Shown: positions 1,546-63,960, counted from the stretch's first letter. The stretch: DNA of 64,000 nucleotides from Mustelus asterias (GCF_964213995.1 NC_135809.1:9672001-9736000), one strand, 5' to 3'. A program made the numbers and translations. The notes: generated by a model not told the origin, from the letters alone.

Positions 1546-1902
1546 TATTCCACTGTCCCTCAACACAACTGATATTAAAGGCCAGTGCCTTTTCTTCAAC
1601 ATACTCCCCATTTCATTGGCTATATTAACAGATGTCGAACTTCATGAGTCAGTATTTCAGCTTGGTAAAACTTTGTTCAAAGTTTTCTTTCCCCATTGAG
1701 TTGATAATGTCATAATACAATAATTCAGCTTATTAATCTTTTCCATTTCCAATTTCAAACATTGACCATATTGACTGAAGAATAACCTCCAATCTGTGTC
1801 CTTCAGGAAGAAGTTGATTCAACAACACCAGTGACCAAATGTGTTAATAGCAGAGCCAAGAATAGAATTGGCTTTTATTACATGATCGTGCGATAAGCTT
1901 AC

Positions 1903-2689
1903 CTGTTTGCAAAGGAACTAAATCCATGGGATACAATTTGTCAATAGCATCTCTGCAGTTTATCAAGACTGCTTCTCCTAATTCTTCAACTGTCCTAAAA
2001 ATTTCAACAGGTAATCCTTTATTGACTATCTTTTCCTTCAGTTCCCATACCTTCCGTTCCTCATAATGATCCCTACTTTTATATTTGCTCTCTATCATTT
2101 CCCTTTTCTCCTGTGGAACCTGCTGAAGTATATCGTCGACATACTGGGAATCTCGGAAATAAAAGAAGCTGAACCCAGAGTTCTTCAGCAGAGCTGCTTC
2201 AGTAATCTCAAGCTCCATCAGACTGTAATTTTTGTAATCTTCATGCAATATCCAAGAGTAGCCATTTCTTGCTGCAATTTGTATATTCTTTTCGACCTTG
2301 GATAAAGCTTCCACATCCGTTCCACTTGCATCTGGTGGGCAATACTCACCATATTTCTGACCTAACAAGCAGATGAAGAAAGGTGAGTATTTGGCGATGA
2401 AGTCTAATGAAACCTTTAGGTGGTGGGAATCTGTGCTCTGGTGATGACTTCCTTCATGTGATGCCCACTGCATGTCTAAAACTTTAAAGCTGCTTCTTCT
2501 GCTGTCACAGAATTCACTTAGAAGAGGGAAAACATCACTTTTCAAATAGTTTATTTCCTCCCGAAAATCCTCAGATGTTGAACGGAGAAAAACCCAAATG
2601 GGTGGTCGATAGATGGAATCTGGGTGACATGTAAAACATTCAGTGTCCTCTGGCTCAATGTTCCTCAGTATTTTTAGACATCCACTCAT
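1903..2689 (-). CDS. TTC41: TTC41-like protein, first coding exon (DUF4062-like N-terminal domain); gene continues off the left end
   Basis: ACC-ATG at 2689 with an in-frame upstream TAA; motifs VFLRSTSEDFREE, FFICLLGQKYG, SLMELEI; donor CAG|GTAAG at 1903/1902; candidate acceptor at 2970-2969; head-to-head with HSP90B1 like human TTC41P. Confidence 0.75.
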
Positions 2690-3187
2690 GGTTGTAAATT
2701 TTAGGATATTTTCTTAAGTTCTTTCTACCCAAAGAATGAGCACTGTTTTTTTTTTAAATCATAGAATTCTTGTGACTTTTCCCTCAAAATTGCAGAAGGT
2801 GCAAATGGAATTACATGCAGCCATCTTGTTTATGTGTGCATGTTCATCAACTTCTGCAGCACTTCCATTGGAGATGTGAAATAAAAATGGTCCTTTGAAT
2901 GGGTTCAGAATTCCTTACATAACAACTTCGGTTCCACGTTGCTGATATCGTCAGCTTCTTCACAATTACTAAAATAGAATGGAAATTTGTGTTTTAAGAA
3001 ATCACTGCAAATTTGTAACTCTAAATGGTTTGTATTGCTATCTTTTTAGACAACTGTGTATTCCATTTCAACCTAATTAAAGTACTTTATAAAAAAAGAT
3101 AGTGATTTCTTTAATTGCACAAGAACCTAAGGATAAGCCCGTCGAGCCTGCTGCATCATTGAGTGAAATCATAACTCATCTTCGACT

Positions 3188-3446
3188 GCACAGTGGTTAG
3201 CGCCGCTGCCTCACAGCGCCAGGGACCCAGGTTCGATTCCTGGCTTGGGTCACTATCTGTGTGGAGTTTGCACATTCTCCCAGTGTCTGCGTGGGTTTCC
3301 TCCGGGTGCTCCGGTTTCCTCTCGGTCCGAAAGACATGCTGGTTAGGTGCATTGACCCAAACAGGCACCAGACTGTGGCGACTCGGGGGAATTTCACAGT
3401 AACTTCATTGCAGTGCAAATGTAAGCCTTACTTGTGACTAATAAAC
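3188..3446 (+). mobile_element. HE1-like V-SINE, tail type 2
   Basis: tRNA-like head CAGTGGTTAGC...GGTTCGATTCC, conserved core, tail ...TTCACAGTAACTTCATTGCAGT...CTTGTGACTAATAAA. Confidence 0.85.
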
Positions 3447-4487
3447 TTGTTGAACTGTCCCTATATTCCTTGCTCTCCAGAAATCTAGATGTCTCAGTTT
3501 TGAATAAACTTAATTTCTGAACTTCTACAGGCAATTCACACACACTCAATTTTACAAACTTCAATGCGTTGCAAACCAGATCTAGTTATACTTCTTCAAG
3601 TAGACCTTCCTGGTTTAAGCGCACGTACTGACATCTCTGCAACACCGCATTGCCACAGGAACAGAGATCTTCCAGCACAGAAGGAGGCCATTCAGCCCAT
3701 TGTGCCTGAAGAAATGGCAGCACCCTCGGAAGAGAGTAGGCCATTCCATCCTTAAGGTCTACCTTTCCCCATTTAATTATATTGTGGCAGATGTGTACTC
3801 CATCTAAAATTACTTACCTTAGCTCAAAATGCCCACCCGTCCCTTTAATACCATTATTCAGTAGAATATATTTTTGTCTTAGCTTTGATAATTTCAGTTT
3901 ACCCTCAGCATCCACAGGTTTTCCAGGAGAGCATTCTGAATTTATGCTACCAATTCCATGAAAATGTGCTTCTGATTTGCCTGTTTCCTGGTGAAAGATA
4001 AAAATGGGTCTCCTTCAGAAGCCTCACAAACAGCTCTTGGGAGCTTGCAACCAACATCAAAATATTAGTCTGACAGGCACTTGAACACCACCGGATCCAC
4101 CATATGAACTCACCCCAAGAGAATTGTGATTGCTTTGTTCATCTGCAAATGTTTTTGAGCTAGGATCATTAAAAAAAAATCTCTGGGAGAAACATTTTTC
4201 ATATAAAAGTCTTGCAAAAATGCAGAGTGCCCGCTTCCGGATGCTACTTAATATTTGTAACAGCACCTTCAGTTTTTTAAAATGTTTTTTTATTAGTGTC
4301 ACAAGTAGGCTCAGTTTAACACTGCAATGAAGTTACTGTGAAAATCCCCTAGCCGCCGCATTCCGGCACCTGTTTGGGTACACTGAGGGGGAATTTAGCA
4401 TGGCCAATGCACCTAACCAGCACGTCTTTCAGATTCAGTAAGAAATCTCACAACATCAGGTTAAAGTCCAACAGGTTTATTTGGTAG

Positions 4488-4522
4488 CGCGAGCTTTCGG
4501 AGCGTTGCCCCTTCATCAGGTG
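4488..4522 (-). ncRNA. minimal type I hammerhead ribozyme motif (PLE terminal repeat)
   Basis: CAC-CUGAUGA-A-GGGGC-AAC-GCUCC-GAAA-GC-UC-GCG; one stem I mismatch. Confidence 0.65.
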
Positions 4523-5268
4523 ATTGGAGAGTTGGGTTCACAAACAGGGCATATATAGGCACAGACTCAATTGCAAGATAATGGTTGGAATGCGAGTCTT
4601 AACAGGTAATCAAGTCTTTACAGGTGCAGACAATGCGAGTGGAGAAAGGGTTAAGCACAGGTTAAAGATGTGTGAATTGCCTCAAACCCGAATAGTTAGT
4701 AAGATTTTGCAAGCCCAGACAAGTCGTGGGGGTTACAGATAGTGTGACATGAACCCAAGATCCCGGTTGAGGTCTTCCTCATGTGTGCGGAACTTGGCTA
4801 TCAGTCTCTGCTCAGCGACTCTGCGCTGTCGTGTGTCTTGAAGGCTGCCTTGGAGAACACTTACCCGAAGATCAGAGGCTGAATGCCCTTGGCTGCTGAA
4901 GTGATCCCCAACAGGAAGGGACAACTCCTTCCTGGTGATCGTCAAGCAGTGTCCATTCATCCGTTGTCGTAGCATCTGCATGGTCTCGTCGATGTACCAT
5001 GCCTCGGGACACCCTTTCCTGCAGCGTATCAGGTAGACAATGTTGGCCGAGTCTCAAGAGTATGTACCATGTACCTGGTGGATGGTGTTCTCACGTGAGA
5101 TGATGGCATCCGTGTCCACAACTCTTTAACCTGTGCTTAACCCTTTTTCCATTCACATTGTCTGCACCTGTAAAGACTCGATTACCTGTCAAGACTTGCA
5201 TTCCAACCATTATCTTGTAATTGAGTCTGTGTCTATATATGCCCTATTTGTGAACCCAACTCTCCACT

Positions 5269-5303
5269 CACCTGATGAAGGGGCAGCGCTCCGAAAGCTC
5301 ATG
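5269..5303 (+). ncRNA. minimal type I hammerhead ribozyme motif
   Basis: CAC-CUGAUGA-A-GGGGC-AGC-GCUCC-GAAA-GC-UC-AUG; first stem I pair mismatched. Confidence 0.6.
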
Positions 5304-5882
5304 CTACCAAATAAACCTGTTGGACTTTAACCTGGTGTTGTGAGACTTCTTACTGTGCTTACCCCAATCCAACGCCGGCATCTCCACATCATGTCTTTCA
5401 GATTGTGGGAGAAAACCAGAGCACCCGGAGCAAACCCACGCCAGACACAGGGAGAACATGCAGTCTCCGCACAGATAATGACCCAAGTCGGGAATTGAAC
5501 TCAGGTCCTTGGTGCTGTGAGGCAGCAGTGCTAACTGCAGTGTCACCATGCCACCCCATAACTAAAATATAGTTGCTGCCTCTTTGAAGGAACTAGCCAA
5601 TTCAGTCCCAAACCTTTTCCCCATGGCCTCGCAAATTAGTTGTCTTTATAGGGGTGTGCAGTTTCCTTCGAGACGTTCCAATGGATTCTGATACTACTAG
5701 GTTTGTTTCTTCTGCCAGCTCCCCACACCTATCCTCCTGCATATGTCCCTCCTCACACCTGTCCCTCCTTCACTTATTCCATCCTCACATCTCCCCCTCA
5801 CCTATCCCTCCCTCCCCTGACCCTCCCTCACCAGTCCTTCCCTCCTTCCCTCCCTGCCCCTTCCCTCCATCTGATATCCACT

Positions 5883-5919
5883 CCATCTGACGAAGGAGCA
5901 GCACTCCGAAAGCTAATGG
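5883..5919 (+). ncRNA. minimal type I hammerhead ribozyme motif, variant with covaried stem I
   Basis: CCAU-CUGACGA-A-GGAG-CAGCA-CUCC-GAAA-GC-UA-AUGG, within a PLE terminal fragment ending ~5980. Confidence 0.7.
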
Positions 5920-5980
5920 CATTTGCTACCAAATAAACCTGTTGGACTTTAACCTGGTGTTGTTAAAACTCTTACTGTGC

Positions 5981-8900
5981 CTTCCCTCCCCACCAGTCCT
6001 TCCCTCCCTCCCTGCCCCCTTCCCTCCCCACCAGTTCCTCCCTCCCTCCCTCCCCTGTCCTTCCCTCCCTCCCTCCTTCACCTGTCCCTCCCTCCCTCGT
6101 CCCTCACCTGTCCCTCCCTCCCTCACCTGTCCCTCCCTCCCTCCCCTGTCCCTCCCTCCCTCCCCTGTCCCTCCCTCCCTCCCTCACCTGTCCCTCCCTC
6201 CCTCACCAGTCCCTCCCTCCCTCACCAGTCCCTCCCTCCCTCCCTCACCAGTCCCTCCCTCCCTCCCTCACCTGTCCCTCCATCCCTCCCTCACCTGTCC
6301 CTCCATCCCTCCCTCACCTGTCCCTCCATCCCTCCCTCACCTGTCCCTCCCTCCCTCCCTCACCTGTCCCTCCCTCACCTGTCTCTCCCTCCCTCCCTCA
6401 CCTGTCTCTCCCTCCCTCCCTCACCTGTCTCTCCCTCCCTCCCTCACCTGTCTCTCCCTCCCTCCCTCACCTGTTTCTCCCTCCCTCCCTCACCCCCTCA
6501 CCTGTCCCTTCCTCCCTCACCTGTCTCTCCATCACTCCCTCACCTGTCCCTCCCTCACCTGTCCCTCCCTCCCTCACCTGTCCCTCCCTCACCTGTCTCT
6601 CCCTCCCTCCCTCACCTGTCCCTCCCTCCCTCCCTCACCTGTCCCTCCCTCCCTCCCTCACCTGTCTCTCCCTCCCTCCCTCCCTCACCTGTCTCTCCCT
6701 CCCTCCCTCACCACCTCACCTGTCCATCCCTCCCTCACCTGTCCCTCCATCCCTCCCTCACCTGTCCCTCCATCCCTCCCTCACCTGTCCCTCCATCCCT
6801 CCCTCACCTGTCCCTCCATCCCTCCCTCACCTGTCCCTCCCTCACCTGTCTCTCCCTCCCTCACCTGTCTCTCCCTCCCTCACCTGTCTCTCCCTCCCTC
6901 CCTCACCTGTCTCTCCTTCCCTCCCTCACCCCCTCACCTGTCCCTTCCTCCCTCACCCTGTCTCTCCATCACTCCCTCACCTGTCCCTCCCTCCCTCCCT
7001 CACCGGTCCCTCCCTCACCGGTCCCTCCCTCCCTCACTCACCTGTCTCTCCCTCCCTCACCTGTCTCTCCCTCCCTCCCTCCCCTGTCTCTCCCTCCCTC
7101 CCTCCCCTGTCTCTCCCTCCCTCCCTCACCTGTCTCTCCCTCCCTCCCTCACCTGTCTCTCCCTCCCTCCCTCCCTCACCTGTCTCTCCCTCCCTCCCTC
7201 ACCTGTCTCTCCCTCCCTCCCCTGTCTCTCCCTCCCTCCCTCACCCCCCCTTCCTCCCTCACCTGTCCCTCCCTCCCTCCCTCCCTCACCGGTCCCTCCC
7301 TCACCGGTCCCTCCCTCCCTCCCTCACCGGTCCCTCCCTCACCTGTCCCTCCCTCACCTGTCCCTCCCTCACCGGTCCCTCCCTCCCTCCCTCACCTGTC
7401 CCTCCCTCCCTCACCTGTCCCTCCCTCCCTCACCTGTCCCTCCCTCATCTGTCTCTCCCTCCCTCCCTCACCTGTCTCTCCCTCCCTCCCTCACCTGTCT
7501 CTCCCTCCCTCCCTCACCTGTCTCTCCCTCCCTCCCTCACCTGTCTCTCCCTCCCTCCCTCACCTGTCTCTCCCTCCCTCCCTCACCTGTCTCTCCCTCC
7601 CTCCCTCACCTGTCTCTCCCTCCCTCACCTGTTTCTCCCTCCCTCCCTCACCTGTCTCTCCCTCCCTCCCTCCCTCACCTGTCTCTCCCTCCCACCCTCA
7701 CCTGTCTCTCCCTCCCTCCCTCACCTGTCTCTCCCTCCCTCCCTCACCTGTCTCTCCCTCCCTCCCTCACCTGTCTCTCCCTCCCTCCCTCACCTGTCTC
7801 TCCCTCCCTCCCTCACCTGTCTCTCCCTCCCTCCCTCCCTCACCTGTCTCTCCCTCCCTCCCGTTTCTCCCTCCCTCCCCTGTCTCTCCCTCCCTCCCTC
7901 ACCTGTCCCTCCCTCCCTCACCTGTTTCTCCCTCCCTCCCTCACCTGTTTCTCCCTCCCTCCCTCACCTGTCTCTCCCTCCCTCCCTCCCTCACCTGTCT
8001 CTCCCTCCCTCCCTCATCTGTCTCTTCCTCCCTCCCTCATCTGTCTCTCCCCCCCTCCCTCACCTGTCTCTCCCTCCCTCCCTCACCTGTCTCTCCCTCC
8101 CTCCCTCACCTGTCTCTCCCTCCCTCCCTCACCTGTCTCTCCCTCCCTCCCTCACCTGTCTCTCCCTCCCTCACCTGTTTCTCCCTCCCTCCCTCACCTG
8201 TTTCTCCCTCCCTCCCTCCCTCACCTGTCTCTCCCTCCCTCCCTCCCTGCCTCACCTGTCTCTCCCTCCCTCCCTCACCTGTCTCTCCCTCCCTCCCTCA
8301 CCTGTCTCTTCCTCCCTCCCTCACCTGTCTCTCCCTCCCTCCCTCACCTGTCTCTCCCTCCCTCCCTCACCTGTCTCTCCCTCCCTCCCTCACCTGTCTC
8401 TCCCTCCCTCCCTCACCTGTCTCTCCCTCCCTCCCTCACCTGTCTCTCCCTCCCTCCCTCACCTGTCTCTCCCTCCCTCCCTCACCTGTCTCTCCCTCCC
8501 TCCCTCCCTCCCTCACCTGTCTCTCCCTCCCTCCCTCCCTCACCTGTCTCTCCCTCCCTCCCCTGTTTCTCCCTCCCTCCCCTGTCTCTCCCTCCCTCCC
8601 TCACCTGTCTCTCCCTCCCTCCCTCACCTGTCTCTCCCTCCCTCCCTCACCTGTCTCTCCCTCCCTCCCTCACCTGTCTCTCCCTCCCTCCCTCACCTGT
8701 CTCTCCCTCCCTCCCTCACCTGTCTCTCCCTCCCTCACCTGTCTCTCCCTCCCTCACCTGTCTCTCCCTCCCTCCCTCACCTGTCTCTCCCTCCCTCCCT
8801 CACCTGTCTCTCCCTCCCTCCCTCACCTGTCTCTCCCTCCCTCCCTCACCTGTCTCTCCCTCCCTCCCTCACCTGTCTCTCCCTCCCTCCCTCACCTGTC

Positions 8901-10165
8901 TCTCCCTCCCTCCCTCACCTGTTTCTCCCTCCCTCCCTCCCTCCCTCACCTGTTTCTCCCTCCCTCCCTCCCTCCCTCACCTGTTTCTCCCTCCCTCCCT
9001 CACCTGTCTCTCCCTCCCTCCCTCCCTCACCTGTTTCTCCCTCCCTCCCTCACCTGTTTCTCCCTCCCTCCCTCACCTGTCTCTCCCTCCCTCCCTCCCT
9101 CACCTGTCTCTCCCTCCCTCCCTCATCTGTCTCTTCCTCCCTCCCTCACCTGTCTCTCCCTCCCTCCCTCACCTGTCTCTCCCTCCCTCCCTCACCTGTC
9201 TCTCCCTCCCTCCCTCACCTGTCTCTCCCTCCCTCCCTCACCTGTCTCTCCCTCCCTCACCTGTCTCTCCCTCCCTCACCTGTTTCTCCCTCCCTCCCTC
9301 ACCTGTTTCTCCCTCCCTCCCTCCCTCACCTGTCTCTCCCTCCCTCCCTCCCTGCCTCACCTGTCTCTCCCTCCCTCCCTCACCTGTCTCTCCCTCCCTC
9401 CCTCACCTGTCTCTCCCTCCCTCCCTCACCTGTCTCTCCCTCCCTCCCTCACCTGTCTCTCCCTCCCTCCCTCACCTGTCTCTCCCTCCCTCCCTCACCT
9501 GTCTCTCCCTCCCTCCCTCCCTCACCTGTCTCTCCCTCCCTCCCTCACCTGTCTCTCCCTCCCTCCCTCACCTGTCTCTCCCTCCCTCCCTCCCTCACCT
9601 GTCTCTCCCTCCCTCCCTCCCTCCCTCACCTGTCTCTCCCTCCCTCCCTCCCTCACCTGTCTCTCCCTCCCTCCCCTGTTTCTCCCTCCCTCCCTCCTGT
9701 CTCTCCCTCCCTCCCTCACCTGTCTCTCCCTCCCTCCCTCACCTGTCTCTCCCTCCCTCCCTCACCTGTCTCTCCCTCCCTCCCTCACCTGTCTCTCCCT
9801 CCCTCCCTCACCTGTCTCTCCCTCCCTCACCTGTCTCTCCCTCCCTCCCTCACCTGTCTCTCCCTCCCTCCCTCACCTGTCTCTCCCTCCCTCCCTCACC
9901 TGTCTCTCCCTCCCTCCCTCACCTGTCTCTCCCTCCCTCCCTCACCTGTCTCTCCCTCCCTCCCTCACCTGTCTCTCCCTCCCTCCCTCACCTGTCTCTC
10001 CCTCCCTCCCTCACCTGTCTCTCCCTCCCTCCCTCACCTGTCTCTCCCTCCCTCCCTCACCTGTCTCTCCCTCCCTCCCTCACCTGTCTCTCCCTCCCTC
10101 CCTCACCTGTCCCTCACTCCCTCCCTCACCTGTCCCTCACTCCCTCCCTCACCTGTCCCTCACTC
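5981..10165. repeat. ~4.2-kb pyrimidine-rich minisatellite, unit about 23 bp CACCTGTCTC(TCCC)nT
   Basis: Directly visible tandem array; unit length varies in steps of 4; it produces the artefactual 1518-aa and 1444-aa Pro/Ser/Leu ORFs. Confidence 0.97.
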
Positions 10166-10197
10166 ATTCACCTGTCCGAACGGCTGGAGCTTTCCCA

Positions 10198-10211
10198 GTT
10201 GCCATGGCGAC
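10198..10211. promoter_or_regulatory. RFX X-box motif in the CpG-rich TTC41/HSP90B1 divergent promoter region
   Basis: GTTGCCATGGCGAC, 13/14 match to the palindrome GTTGCCATGGCAAC. Confidence 0.65.
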
Positions 10212-10304
10212 CGTGTCCCAGCGCGGTTGTCAGGGTGAGCGACCCGGTGCCCCCGGAAGCGGATCAGCGGTGCGGCTGCAGCCTGAGCCGGGTTGGTGTG
10301 TGTG

Positions 10305-10513
10305 TTGGTAGCGGTGGGGGGAGAGTAGAGACAGCGCTGGGGGGGGGGGGGGGGGGTGTGGCTAGCGACGGTCAGAGGGGGTTAGCAACAGCGCTGGGAG
10401 GAGGGTGGGTTAGTGATGGCCCTGGGGGGGGTGGGTGGGTTAGTGACGGCACTTGGGGGGGAGGGGTGATAGTGACAGCACTGGGGGGGAGGGGTTAGTG
10501 ACAGCGCCTCCCT
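10305..10513. repeat. G-rich ~30-bp degenerate tandem repeat running into the gap
   Basis: Recurring GGTTAGTGACAGCRCT(G)n units. Confidence 0.8.
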
Positions 10514-10713
10514 NNNNNNNNNNNNNNNNNNNNNNNNNNNNNNNNNNNNNNNNNNNNNNNNNNNNNNNNNNNNNNNNNNNNNNNNNNNNNNNNNNNNNNN
10601 NNNNNNNNNNNNNNNNNNNNNNNNNNNNNNNNNNNNNNNNNNNNNNNNNNNNNNNNNNNNNNNNNNNNNNNNNNNNNNNNNNNNNNNNNNNNNNNNNNNN
10701 NNNNNNNNNNNNN
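10514..10713. other. assembly gap (200 N)
   Basis: Run of N. Confidence 0.99.
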
Positions 10714-10953
10714 GCTCGCATTGTATGCAATACACTTGGCCAAACTCTAAATAGACCAAGGTGCAAATAGTGGAATTGAAGAGGGTTGCAGCGAAAAGTT
10801 GTGTGGATGCTCACAATTCCAGGAGCTCTGGTTTTTCTCCCTGTATTTTTTACAGGAAGAAAAACATTCTCCTCTTAGACAGTGTTACATGAATTGAGCC
10901 ACTGATGTTGCTAACAGCCTAACACCCATCCCTTTTGCCTTTTTTGTTGGTAG

Positions 10954-11095
10954 GGAGGAAGAAGCTATTCAATTAGATGGACTGAATCCTGCTCAAGTTA
11001 AAGAAATCAGGGAAAAGGCTGAAAAGTTTATGTTCCAAGCAGAAGTTAACAGGATGATGAAGTTGATCATTAATTCTCTGTACAAGAACAAGGAG
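10954..11095 (+). CDS. HSP90B1: endoplasmin/GRP94 exon 3 (first visible exon)
   Basis: AG/GT bounded; [11 protein letters not shown]...[21 protein letters not shown]. Confidence 0.95.
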
Positions 11096-11504
11096 GTAAG
11101 TTGCTTTGAAAAGCTTCACCCCGCTGTTTTGTACTCGAGTTGATTCTGAGACATTTGCCCTAATGATGCTCTTGACTTTCTAAATCTGGCACTTTTGCTG
11201 TACCAAAGCATTTAGAAGTGTTGAATGTTCAACATTCAGTAACTGGCTGCATAATCTATTACAATCTATTATGGATGCAAGGGAAAGACTGATCCACAAA
11301 TACTGTTGGTGATGCCAACCATTGGCTTGTGCCCATTATTTCATGGTAATTGTATGTGGTGTTCTCATAAAACATGATTGATTGTGTTAGAACCACTGAT
11401 TACTGCCATTTGAAGTTCTCAGTTAGGTAGCAAGGTAAAGATCACAAATACCAGTGTATATATATTTGGCTGCAGGATGTTAATTTGATGTTTATTGTTA
11501 TCAG

Positions 11505-63849: not shown

Positions 63850-63960
63850 CCCAACAGGGCCAAGAGCCCGGCACGGCCCAGAGCCCGGTACGGCCCAGGG
63901 CCTGGCACGTCCCAGGGCGGCCCAGGGCCCAGCACGGCCCAGGGCCTGGCACGGCCCAGA
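63850..63960. repeat. GC-rich 17-bp tandem repeat
   Basis: About 6 units of GCACGGCCCAGGGCCYG. Confidence 0.85.

What the first reader, a model, noticed from the sequence alone, without database searches (positions are those of the whole stretch)
5981..10172. 4.2-kb minisatellite that is an array of 5' splice donors and G-tracts on the TTC41 strand
Seen: on the minus strand each unit reads (GGGA)n-GAGACAG|GTGAG-G, a near-consensus U1 site (CAG|GTGAGG), repeated very roughly 180 times. It begins immediately after a candidate TTC41 first-exon donor GACAG|GTGAAT at 10172/10171 and ends at a PLE terminal fragment. Inference: the array arose by amplifying the exon 1 donor junction. It could act as a U1 snRNP or hnRNP H/F sink, give variable 5' UTR lengths, and form G-quadruplex, H-DNA or R-loops beside the HSP90B1 promoter.
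Basis: partly seen in the sequence, partly recalled or inferred. Interest (0 to 1): 0.7.

Follow-up and report, generated by a model that had tools for sequence, protein, structure and literature searches.

The report
Splice-donor minisatellite in shark TTC41 intron
A 4.2-kb tandem repeat in a houndshark copies the splice signal at the end of the TTC41 gene's first exon about 155 more times into the following intron, and the single transcript piece available still uses the first, genuine signal, so it is a large example of an oddity already known from several human genes.

Summary
The array is real as described: about 180 units of 23 bp, with 156 CAG|GT sites on the minus strand. One contig from a same-species run joins window 10172 to 2968 across a 7,203-nt GT-AG intron. 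So the proposed TTC41 exon 1 donor is genuine and the array is transcribed in intron 1. The first unit spans that junction (6 exonic bases), and both array edges keep the exon-type hexamer, which fits an origin by junction duplication; no outgroup could test the direction. The used donor pairs more weakly with U1 than the decoys (-8.4 vs -11.6 kcal/mol). This is the known F7/IFI6/CBS/LMNB2/PDGF class of donor-reiterating minisatellite (PMC1557585), where the first donor wins. This scan noted the class before on other DNA, including two shark genes. Corrections: the array continues, degraded, beyond the Penelope-like fragment, and HSP90B1 exons 1-2 are absent from the visible sequence, presumably in a 200-N gap, so its promoter distance is unknown. 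A U1 or hnRNP sink is implausible; variable 5' UTRs are untested. Verdict: new, large member of a known kind, probably tolerated rather than selected.

The parts
10172..10232 (-). TTC41 exon 1 (non-coding for the main frame; minimum extent, true start not mapped)
   Evidence: X8 contig has 59 loose letters beyond 2970; the 30 shown match window 10174-10203 exactly and uniquely; the other 29 are assumed collinear
10166..10177 (-). Authentic 5' splice site GGACAG|GTGAAT, cut between 10172 and 10171; also the start of the first array unit
5981..10171 (-). Main minisatellite, about 180 units (modal 23 bp), 155 downstream CAG|GT pseudo-donors, 565 G-tracts, 91% purine
5879..5980 (+). Interspersed repeat fragment with a hammerhead-core-like motif (Penelope-like terminus by recall), lying inside the oldest part of the array
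   Evidence: 79-86% matches at several other places in the window; core motif at 5887; family name recalled, Rfam gave no hit
5719..5871 (-). Diverged distal remnant of the same array
   Evidence: TRF rows 5719-5868; 72-78% to array units; eroded donor-like sites at 5831, 5801, 5758, 5728
2969..10171 (-). TTC41 intron 1, 7,203 nt, GT...AG, 72% pyrimidine in the 18 nt before the AG
1903..2968 (-). TTC41 exon 2: 5' UTR part, ATG at 2689, N-terminal DUF4062-like domain
   Evidence: 263 of the first 263 residues identical to Mustelus asterias TTC41 P0001; Pfam DUF4062 E 1.1e-4, below cut-off; contigs in 4 of 4 runs laid
10198..10259 (.). X-box-like palindrome (10198-10211) and ETS-like CCGGAAG (10253) in a CpG-rich stretch (CpG o/e 0.83): likely TTC41 promoter region
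   Evidence: pattern scan; motif definitions recalled
10514..10713 (.). 200-N assembly gap, presumed to hide HSP90B1 exons 1-2 and promoter
   Evidence: tblastn of 5 shark endoplasmin N-termini finds nothing before residue 44-47
10946..11098 (+). First visible HSP90B1 coding exon (residues about 45-95; exon 3 by recalled numbering)
   Evidence: tblastn

Best explanation
It is a donor-reiterating minisatellite. A segment of about 19 bp spanning the TTC41 exon 1/intron 1 junction (6 exonic plus about 13 intronic bases) was duplicated in tandem (inferred). GGGA slippage and larger unequal exchanges then grew it to about 180 units, a derived GAGACAG variant filled the interior, and a retroelement fragment landed in the old distal end (inferred from unit structure). 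The array is transcribed and removed with intron 1 (shown by one contig). The spliceosome takes the most upstream donor even though the copies match U1 better (shown once; general rule from F7). Likely reasons are 5'-to-3' scanning, the position next to the cap, and G-tracts that favour the donor upstream of them (inferred from mammalian work). Because the spliced mRNA is unchanged, the array is tolerated and has no selected job; at most the nearest one or two copies are used occasionally, as in IFI6 and CBS.
For: Junction 10172 to 2968 with GT-AG ends, 0 differences over 291 aligned letters. GGACAG|GTGA, identical to the real junction, occurs 33 times in the array and 0 times in the other 59.5 kb. 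Duplicating junction bases -6..+13 reproduces the first repeat. Exon-type GGACAG ends 3 of the 3 units next to the exon and GGAC(A/C/T)G ends 30 of 45 units in 5981-6999, but only 1 of 112 in 7450-10099. Internal blocks are similar but not identical (369 matches between 384 and 376 nt), the pattern of past block duplication. Five human precedents with the first donor used alone or with two pseudo-sites; F7 pseudo-sites strengthened to a consensus value of 91 still do not compete (PMC1557585). G-rich sequence between competing donors favours the weaker upstream one through hnRNP H/F in PLP/DM20 (PMC1919487).
Against: Only 1 contig (depth 2.4) from 1 run crosses the junction; its library type is not on record, and contigs drop rare isoforms. 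No relative's exon 1 was obtained (0 of 2 other-species runs laid), so donor-first versus array-first is not decided. Identity with the exon reaches only 6 nt, and the decoys differ from the real donor at +5/+6, unlike F7 where they are identical. Neutrality is inferred, not tested. All mechanism evidence is from mammals.
Confidence: 0.72

Rival explanations
1. Cis-regulatory element: the array matters for TTC41 itself. Occasional use of nearby donors lengthens exon 1 and rewires its upstream reading frames, or the dense U1 sites and G-rich nascent RNA support elongation in the direction opposite to HSP90B1.
For: Decoys pair better with U1 than the used donor and than all 11 inferred HSP90B1 donors (-11.6 vs -8.4 vs median -7.1 kcal/mol). 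Use of any of the 4 downstream donors tested would cut the 51-codon upstream frame that starts in exon 1 to 13 codons and add another upstream ATG. Unspliced 5' splice sites protect nascent RNA from Restrictor (PMC11741429, passages). G-rich first-intron elements are common and conserved in vertebrates (PMC2275096, abstract).
Against: The single junction seen uses the first donor. One proximal donor should already give U1 protection, and the non-array part of the intron has only 2 AATAAA and 3 ATTAAA. The leader already holds 8 upstream ATGs, so changing one may do little. No conservation or expression data.
Confidence: 0.12
2. Array first: a G-rich minisatellite that happened to contain CAGGTGAG arose independently, and its edge unit was later recruited as the exon 1 donor and then drifted.
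For: Exon identity is only 6 nt and the real donor is the most diverged version, as edge units usually are. Exon 1 is non-coding, so its boundary is free to move. The most eroded units lie at the far end, 4.4 kb from the exon.
Against: Sequence upstream of base -6 shows no repeat-like remnant. The same arrangement recurs at coding exons in humans (PMC1557585), where the exon must predate the repeat.
Confidence: 0.1
3. Trans-acting sink: the intron RNA sequesters U1 snRNP or hnRNP H/F, as expanded C9orf72 repeats do with hnRNP H.
For: 155 U1 sites and 565 G-tracts per transcript; precedent for hnRNP H sequestration (PMC5050020, search listing only).
Against: Two gene copies with a few nascent transcripts give hundreds to thousands of sites, against about a million U1 particles per cell (recalled figure). 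TTC41 cover in the same-species runs is thin and patchy (contig depths 2.1-4.2, a poor measure of expression). Nothing suggests that the excised intron persists.
Confidence: 0.02
4. Assembly artefact: the array is absent or much shorter in the real genome.
For: It ends 342 bp from an assembly gap, and its DNA support could not be checked.
Against: 45 unit kinds in ordered domains, diverged internal block duplications, almost no off-phase indels (177 of 183 units), an old remnant interrupted by a retroelement, and exact phase with a used donor. The copy number may still be wrong or be one allele of many.
Confidence: 0.04

Closest known systems
Human F7 intron 7 37-bp VNTR (Borensztajn et al. 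2006, PMC1557585; read: abstract, discussion, passages of the introduction and references)
   Same: First unit spans the exon-intron boundary with a few exonic bases (4 in F7, 6 here); donors are reiterated into the intron; the most upstream one is used.
   Different: F7 has 5-9 units with identical donors after a coding exon. Here about 180 units follow a non-coding first exon, the copies are predicted stronger than the real donor, and each carries about 3 G-tracts.
Human IFI6 (6-16) intron 2, CBS intron 13, LMNB2 and PDGF intron 4 minisatellites (as described in the introduction of PMC1557585; the original papers were not read)
   Same: Minisatellites that repeat the authentic donor 10-25 times; only the first, or the first plus two pseudo-sites, are used.
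   Different: About 6-15 times fewer donors; use of nearby pseudo-sites is shown for IFI6 and CBS but untested here.
G-rich intron 1 elements (GrIn1; Eddy and Maizels 2008, PMC2275096; abstract and outline only)
   Same: G-rich, G4-prone non-template strand at the 5' end of a first intron.
   Different: Those elements are found in 16% of human genes and reported as conserved; this is a 4.2-kb tandem array whose conservation is unknown.
Intron gain by tandem duplication of AGGT-containing segments (PMC3265369, PMC4974935; search listing only)
   Same: Each unit holds AG|GT, formally both an acceptor end and a donor.
   Different: Units have no polypyrimidine tract (7% pyrimidine), so they cannot plausibly act as acceptors; no new intron is made.

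Membership tests
Donor-reiterating minisatellite (F7/IFI6/CBS/LMNB2/PDGF type) | Head-to-tail array with a minisatellite-sized unit | tested here: met
   period 23, 180.3 copies; 183 units parsed
Donor-reiterating minisatellite (F7/IFI6/CBS/LMNB2/PDGF type) | First unit spans an authentic, used exon-intron boundary | tested here: met
   1 contig joins 10172 to 2968; 6 exonic and 4 intronic bases shared in phase with the next units
Donor-reiterating minisatellite (F7/IFI6/CBS/LMNB2/PDGF type) | Donor sequence reiterated through the intron | tested here: met
   155 further CAG|GT sites; identical at -3..+4, different at +5/+6 in 153 of 155
Donor-reiterating minisatellite (F7/IFI6/CBS/LMNB2/PDGF type) | Downstream copies silent, or only the nearest used | tested here: inconclusive
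   1 of 1 same-species junction contig uses the first donor; contigs drop rare forms
Donor-reiterating minisatellite (F7/IFI6/CBS/LMNB2/PDGF type) | Copy number varies between alleles | not testable with these tools
G-rich intron 1 element (GrIn1) | G4-prone non-template strand at the 5' end of intron 1 | tested here: met
   565 G-tracts, 44 non-overlapping G3/N1-7 motifs, 95% of windows >=1.2
G-rich intron 1 element (GrIn1) | Conserved across species | not testable with these tools
   no orthologous intron 1 start available; 2 other-species runs gave no exon 1 sequence
Intron-creating AGGT tandem duplication | Duplicated unit supplies a working acceptor (pyrimidine tract before AG) | tested here: not met
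   pyrimidine fraction at -20..-3 averages 0.07, max 0.22, against 0.72 at the real acceptor
Protein-sequestering repeat RNA (C9orf72 type) | Stable repeat RNA foci that deplete a splicing factor | not testable with these tools
   needs FISH and CLIP; the stoichiometry argues against it (recalled U1 abundance)

The most novel reading that the evidence does not exclude
The array is a tunable cis element at a head-to-head TTC41/HSP90B1 promoter. About 155 U1 sites stronger than the real donor, set in G-tracts, let hnRNP H/F levels or allele length shift splicing to internal donors, which rewires the upstream reading frames of the TTC41 leader, or they set elongation and R-loop/G4 load in the direction opposite to HSP90B1. 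It would also be a natural test of first-donor choice against more than 150 stronger rivals in a first exon, with no reading frame to enforce it.
Probability: 0.12. Interest if true: 0.6.

Novelty: new member of a known kind. Interest (0 to 1): 0.3.

Why it matters
As biology it is probably a tolerated repeat expansion. Its value is as a natural experiment on 5' splice-site choice: a weaker donor appears to win over 155 better U1 matches spread over 4 kb, in a non-coding first exon and outside mammals. A few hundred junction reads would test the F7 scanning model at a scale that the human cases (4-25 pseudo-sites) cannot reach. It is also a practical warning for annotation: the locus sits next to a gap, and the matching public HSP90B1 protein record lacks its signal peptide.

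Tried and rejected
No whole genome is held, so I could not count such arrays genome-wide. Run search listed no holder on record as RNA; RNA nature of X8 is inferred from the GT-AG join. A processed retrocopy would give the same join, and would still record use of this donor. My advance guess that exon 2 began near 2784, made from the word share of X7, was wrong: X7 simply stops at 2721 and the acceptor is at 2969/2968. X7 (1 contig) and X9 (3 contigs) do not reach the acceptor; X1's loose end is not exon 1. Rfam found 0 matches in the window. Pfam did not name the Penelope-like frame at 4736-5053 (0 hits at E 0.001, one chance hit below cut-off at E 5), so that label is recalled, with PMC4209133 seen only as a search listing. 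The three long plus-strand frames across the array (1423-1535 codons) are rejected as products of a C/T-rich repeat that cannot spell a stop. The plus-strand ATG near 10204 with a donor-like site at 10235 is not HSP90B1 exon 1: it does not resemble 5 shark N-termini. No ERSE consensus in the window. RNA folding of 10040-10232 gave only weak G-U helices and no usable difference in donor accessibility. MaxEntScan was not available; U1 duplex energy is a crude stand-in, and the 11 HSP90B1 donors were picked as the best GT near alignment ends, not from transcripts. Literature: no paper on a shark case in searches 'minisatellite, splice, shark, intron' (8 papers), 'TTC41/HSP90B1' or 'TTC41, Grp94 neighboring, BC030307' (20 of 23 listed); one search returned only hammerhead-shark papers. 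The library lacks most subscription papers. No supplements were read.

Full report
Observation. Tandem Repeats Finder reports an array at 5997-10165 with period 23 and 180.3 copies. On the minus strand of 5981-10172, 156 of 180 GT dinucleotides are CAG|GT: 153 CAG|GTGAGG and one each of CAG|GTGAAT, CAG|GTGAGT and CAG|GTGAAG. CAGGTGAG occurs 154 times on that strand, 0 times on the other, 4 times in the remaining 59.5 kb, and 0.12 times on average in 200 shuffles. My parse gives 183 units of 45 kinds; 77 are the modal 23-mer and 177 differ from it in length only by whole 4-base steps. The strand is 91% purine with 565 G-tracts; 144 of 182 23-bp bins hold a purine mirror repeat with arms of 10 or more. 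Most units (113 of 183) have three G-tracts and 39 have four or more, so most quadruplexes would need two units.

Setting. The frame at 2689-1903 (minus) is identical over its first 263 residues to the Mustelus asterias TTC41 record and 59-76% identical to 14 other shark and ray TTC41 proteins, so the window is from that houndshark or a very close relative. HSP90B1 runs on the plus strand from about 10946. Its residues 1-44 are not found anywhere in the window with 5 shark N-termini as queries, and a 200-N gap lies at 10514-10713. The M. asterias endoplasmin record has 716 residues and starts inside the first visible exon. The two genes are head to head, but the distance from the array to the HSP90B1 promoter is unknown. 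An X-box-like palindrome (10198-10211), an ETS-like site (10253) and CpG o/e 0.83 mark 10172-10330 as the likely TTC41 promoter region (motif definitions recalled).

The key test. I laid contigs of 4 of the 9 listed runs on the unique stretch 1840-3170. Ten contig pieces were laid; two had loose ends, both at 2970. In X8, from the same organism code as the full-share holders but another sample, a 350-letter contig (depth 2.4) matches 2680-2970 with no differences and continues for 59 letters. The 30 letters shown match window 10174-10203 exactly and nowhere else. Allowing for the two letters shared by both sides, the join is 10172 to 2968, and the skipped 7,203 nt begin with GT and end with a pyrimidine tract and AG. 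So the proposed donor is real and the whole array lies in TTC41 intron 1. Limits: one contig, library type not on record, and contigs show presence, not proportions. X7 stops at 2721 and X9 covers only 1903-2162. The other loose end (X1, another species) is not exon 1; it matches window 3725-3754 at 28 of 30 letters in the opposite orientation.

Origin. Junction bases -6..+13, duplicated, reproduce the start of the array, and the next units differ by a change in one 4-mer and one added GGGA. The 10-mer GGACAG|GTGA occurs 33 times in the array and 0 times elsewhere in the window. The exon-type ending marks 3 of the 3 units next to the exon and 30 of 45 in 5981-6999, but 1 of 112 in 7450-10099, where AGACAG (97) and AAACAG (14) have taken over. 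Edges that keep the old form around a homogenised interior are what minisatellite turnover is expected to leave (general knowledge). Blocks with rare marker units recur in diverged form (369 matches between 8977-9360 and 7880-8255; 240 between 6739-6980 and 6272-6543), which points to past block duplications and against a simple mis-join. A 72-78% diverged remnant at 5719-5871 lies beyond the repeat fragment at 5879-5980, so that fragment sits inside the array and does not bound it. Against a firm conclusion: identity with the exon stops at base -6, and no outgroup exon 1 was obtained, so recruitment of an edge unit as donor remains possible.

How it most likely works. In a simple duplex model the used donor pairs with the U1 5' end at -8.4 kcal/mol and the array donors at -11.6; 11 inferred HSP90B1 donors range from -4.1 to -10.7, median -7.1. 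So the real donor is ordinary and the copies are strong, yet the one junction seen uses the first. [quoted passage not shown] G-rich sequence between two donors favours the weaker upstream one via hnRNP H/F in PLP/DM20 (PMC1919487; abstract and introduction), and here G-tracts lie between every pair of donors. Cap-proximal U1 recruitment at first exons (recalled) would push the same way. These steps are inferred from mammals. The units cannot serve as acceptors (7% pyrimidine before the AG). The mRNA is therefore unchanged and the array can grow at little cost.

Sink: a few nascent transcripts from two alleles offer at most thousands of sites against about a million U1 particles per cell (recalled); I rate it 2%. 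Variable 5' UTR: possible for the nearest copies, as in IFI6 and CBS, and it would have a testable effect. The spliced leader seen is at least 340 nt with 8 upstream ATGs; the one in exon 1 opens 51 codons, and any of the 4 downstream donors tested would cut that to 13 and add a further ATG. No such isoform was seen. G4, H-DNA and R-loops: the sequence potential is high, but G-rich non-template strands at the start of first introns are common (16% of human genes; PMC2275096, abstract), and nothing here shows function. Unspliced 5' splice sites can protect nascent RNA from early termination (PMC11741429, passages), but one proximal donor should suffice.

Comparison and novelty. The introduction of PMC1557585 lists F7, IFI6 (25 pseudo-sites), CBS (15-20 units), LMNB2 (10-15) and PDGF (16-18) as minisatellites whose first unit spans an exon-intron boundary. 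This locus meets the three structural criteria I could test; silence of the copies is inconclusive and allelic variation was not testable. It differs in size, in following a non-coding first exon, and in having copies stronger than the original. I found no paper on a shark case. Earlier notes of this scan describe 8 similar arrays in other genomes, among them shark GIPC1 (about 63 units), shark EMILIN1 (56 copies) and sea urchin RCE1 (about 377); these are unchecked notes that I did not verify, and none is listed for this genome or its look-alikes. I had reached the F7 reading before seeing them.

Verdict. A real, transcribed, large donor-reiterating minisatellite; new member of a known kind; most likely tolerated rather than functional. 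Interest 0.3. The regulatory reading has about a 12% chance and would deserve about 0.6.

Noticed in passing
window 10514-10713: 200-N gap where HSP90B1 exons 1-2 should lie; the Mustelus asterias endoplasmin record (P0022, 716 aa) lacks the signal peptide and starts inside the first visible exon, so the public model looks truncated by a gap at the same place.
   Followed up: partly
window 2971-3756: The loose end of a contig from another shark (run X1) next to the exon 2 acceptor matches window 3725-3754 at 28 of 30 letters in the opposite orientation. This may be a roughly 770-bp inversion just upstream of the acceptor in one lineage, or another copy of a small repeat.
   Followed up: partly
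window 2687-2968 and 10172-10232 (minus): The spliced TTC41 leader has 8 upstream ATGs; the first, inside the X-box-like palindrome, has a strong Kozak-like context and opens 51 codons, which suggests translational damping.
   Followed up: partly
window 10310-10513 (plus): A second, G-rich tandem repeat of about 28-30 bp units on the HSP90B1 strand runs into the gap; it may be the start of a longer array that broke the assembly.
   Followed up: no
window 4436-4674 and 5117-5355: Two 93% identical inverted copies of a Penelope-like terminus in TTC41 intron 1; one hammerhead-core-like motif (near 4519) lies on the TTC41 sense strand.
   Followed up: no
window 1840-1902: Contigs of X7 and X1 run past the exon 2 donor at 1903 into intron 2, while other X1 and X9 contigs break at 1903: unspliced or intron-retaining TTC41 RNA, or DNA in those runs.
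   Followed up: no
window 5981-10171: At the DNA level the array is also 155 copies of the E-box CAGGTG, a site for E-proteins and ZEB/Snail factors (recalled); it is nearly free of CpG (o/e 0.07).
   Followed up: no
window 1903-2689 (minus): The exon encodes the DUF4062-like domain, which a 2026 preprint (10.64898/2026.09.21.753143, passages) places in a TIR-like NADase family; there the TTC41 domain is described as enzymatically inactive and human TTC41 as a pseudogene. The shark frame is open in this exon.
   Followed up: partly
window 61220 and 63858-63960: A second X-box-like motif, and a GC-rich tandem repeat at the window's end, possibly another promoter region.
   Followed up: no
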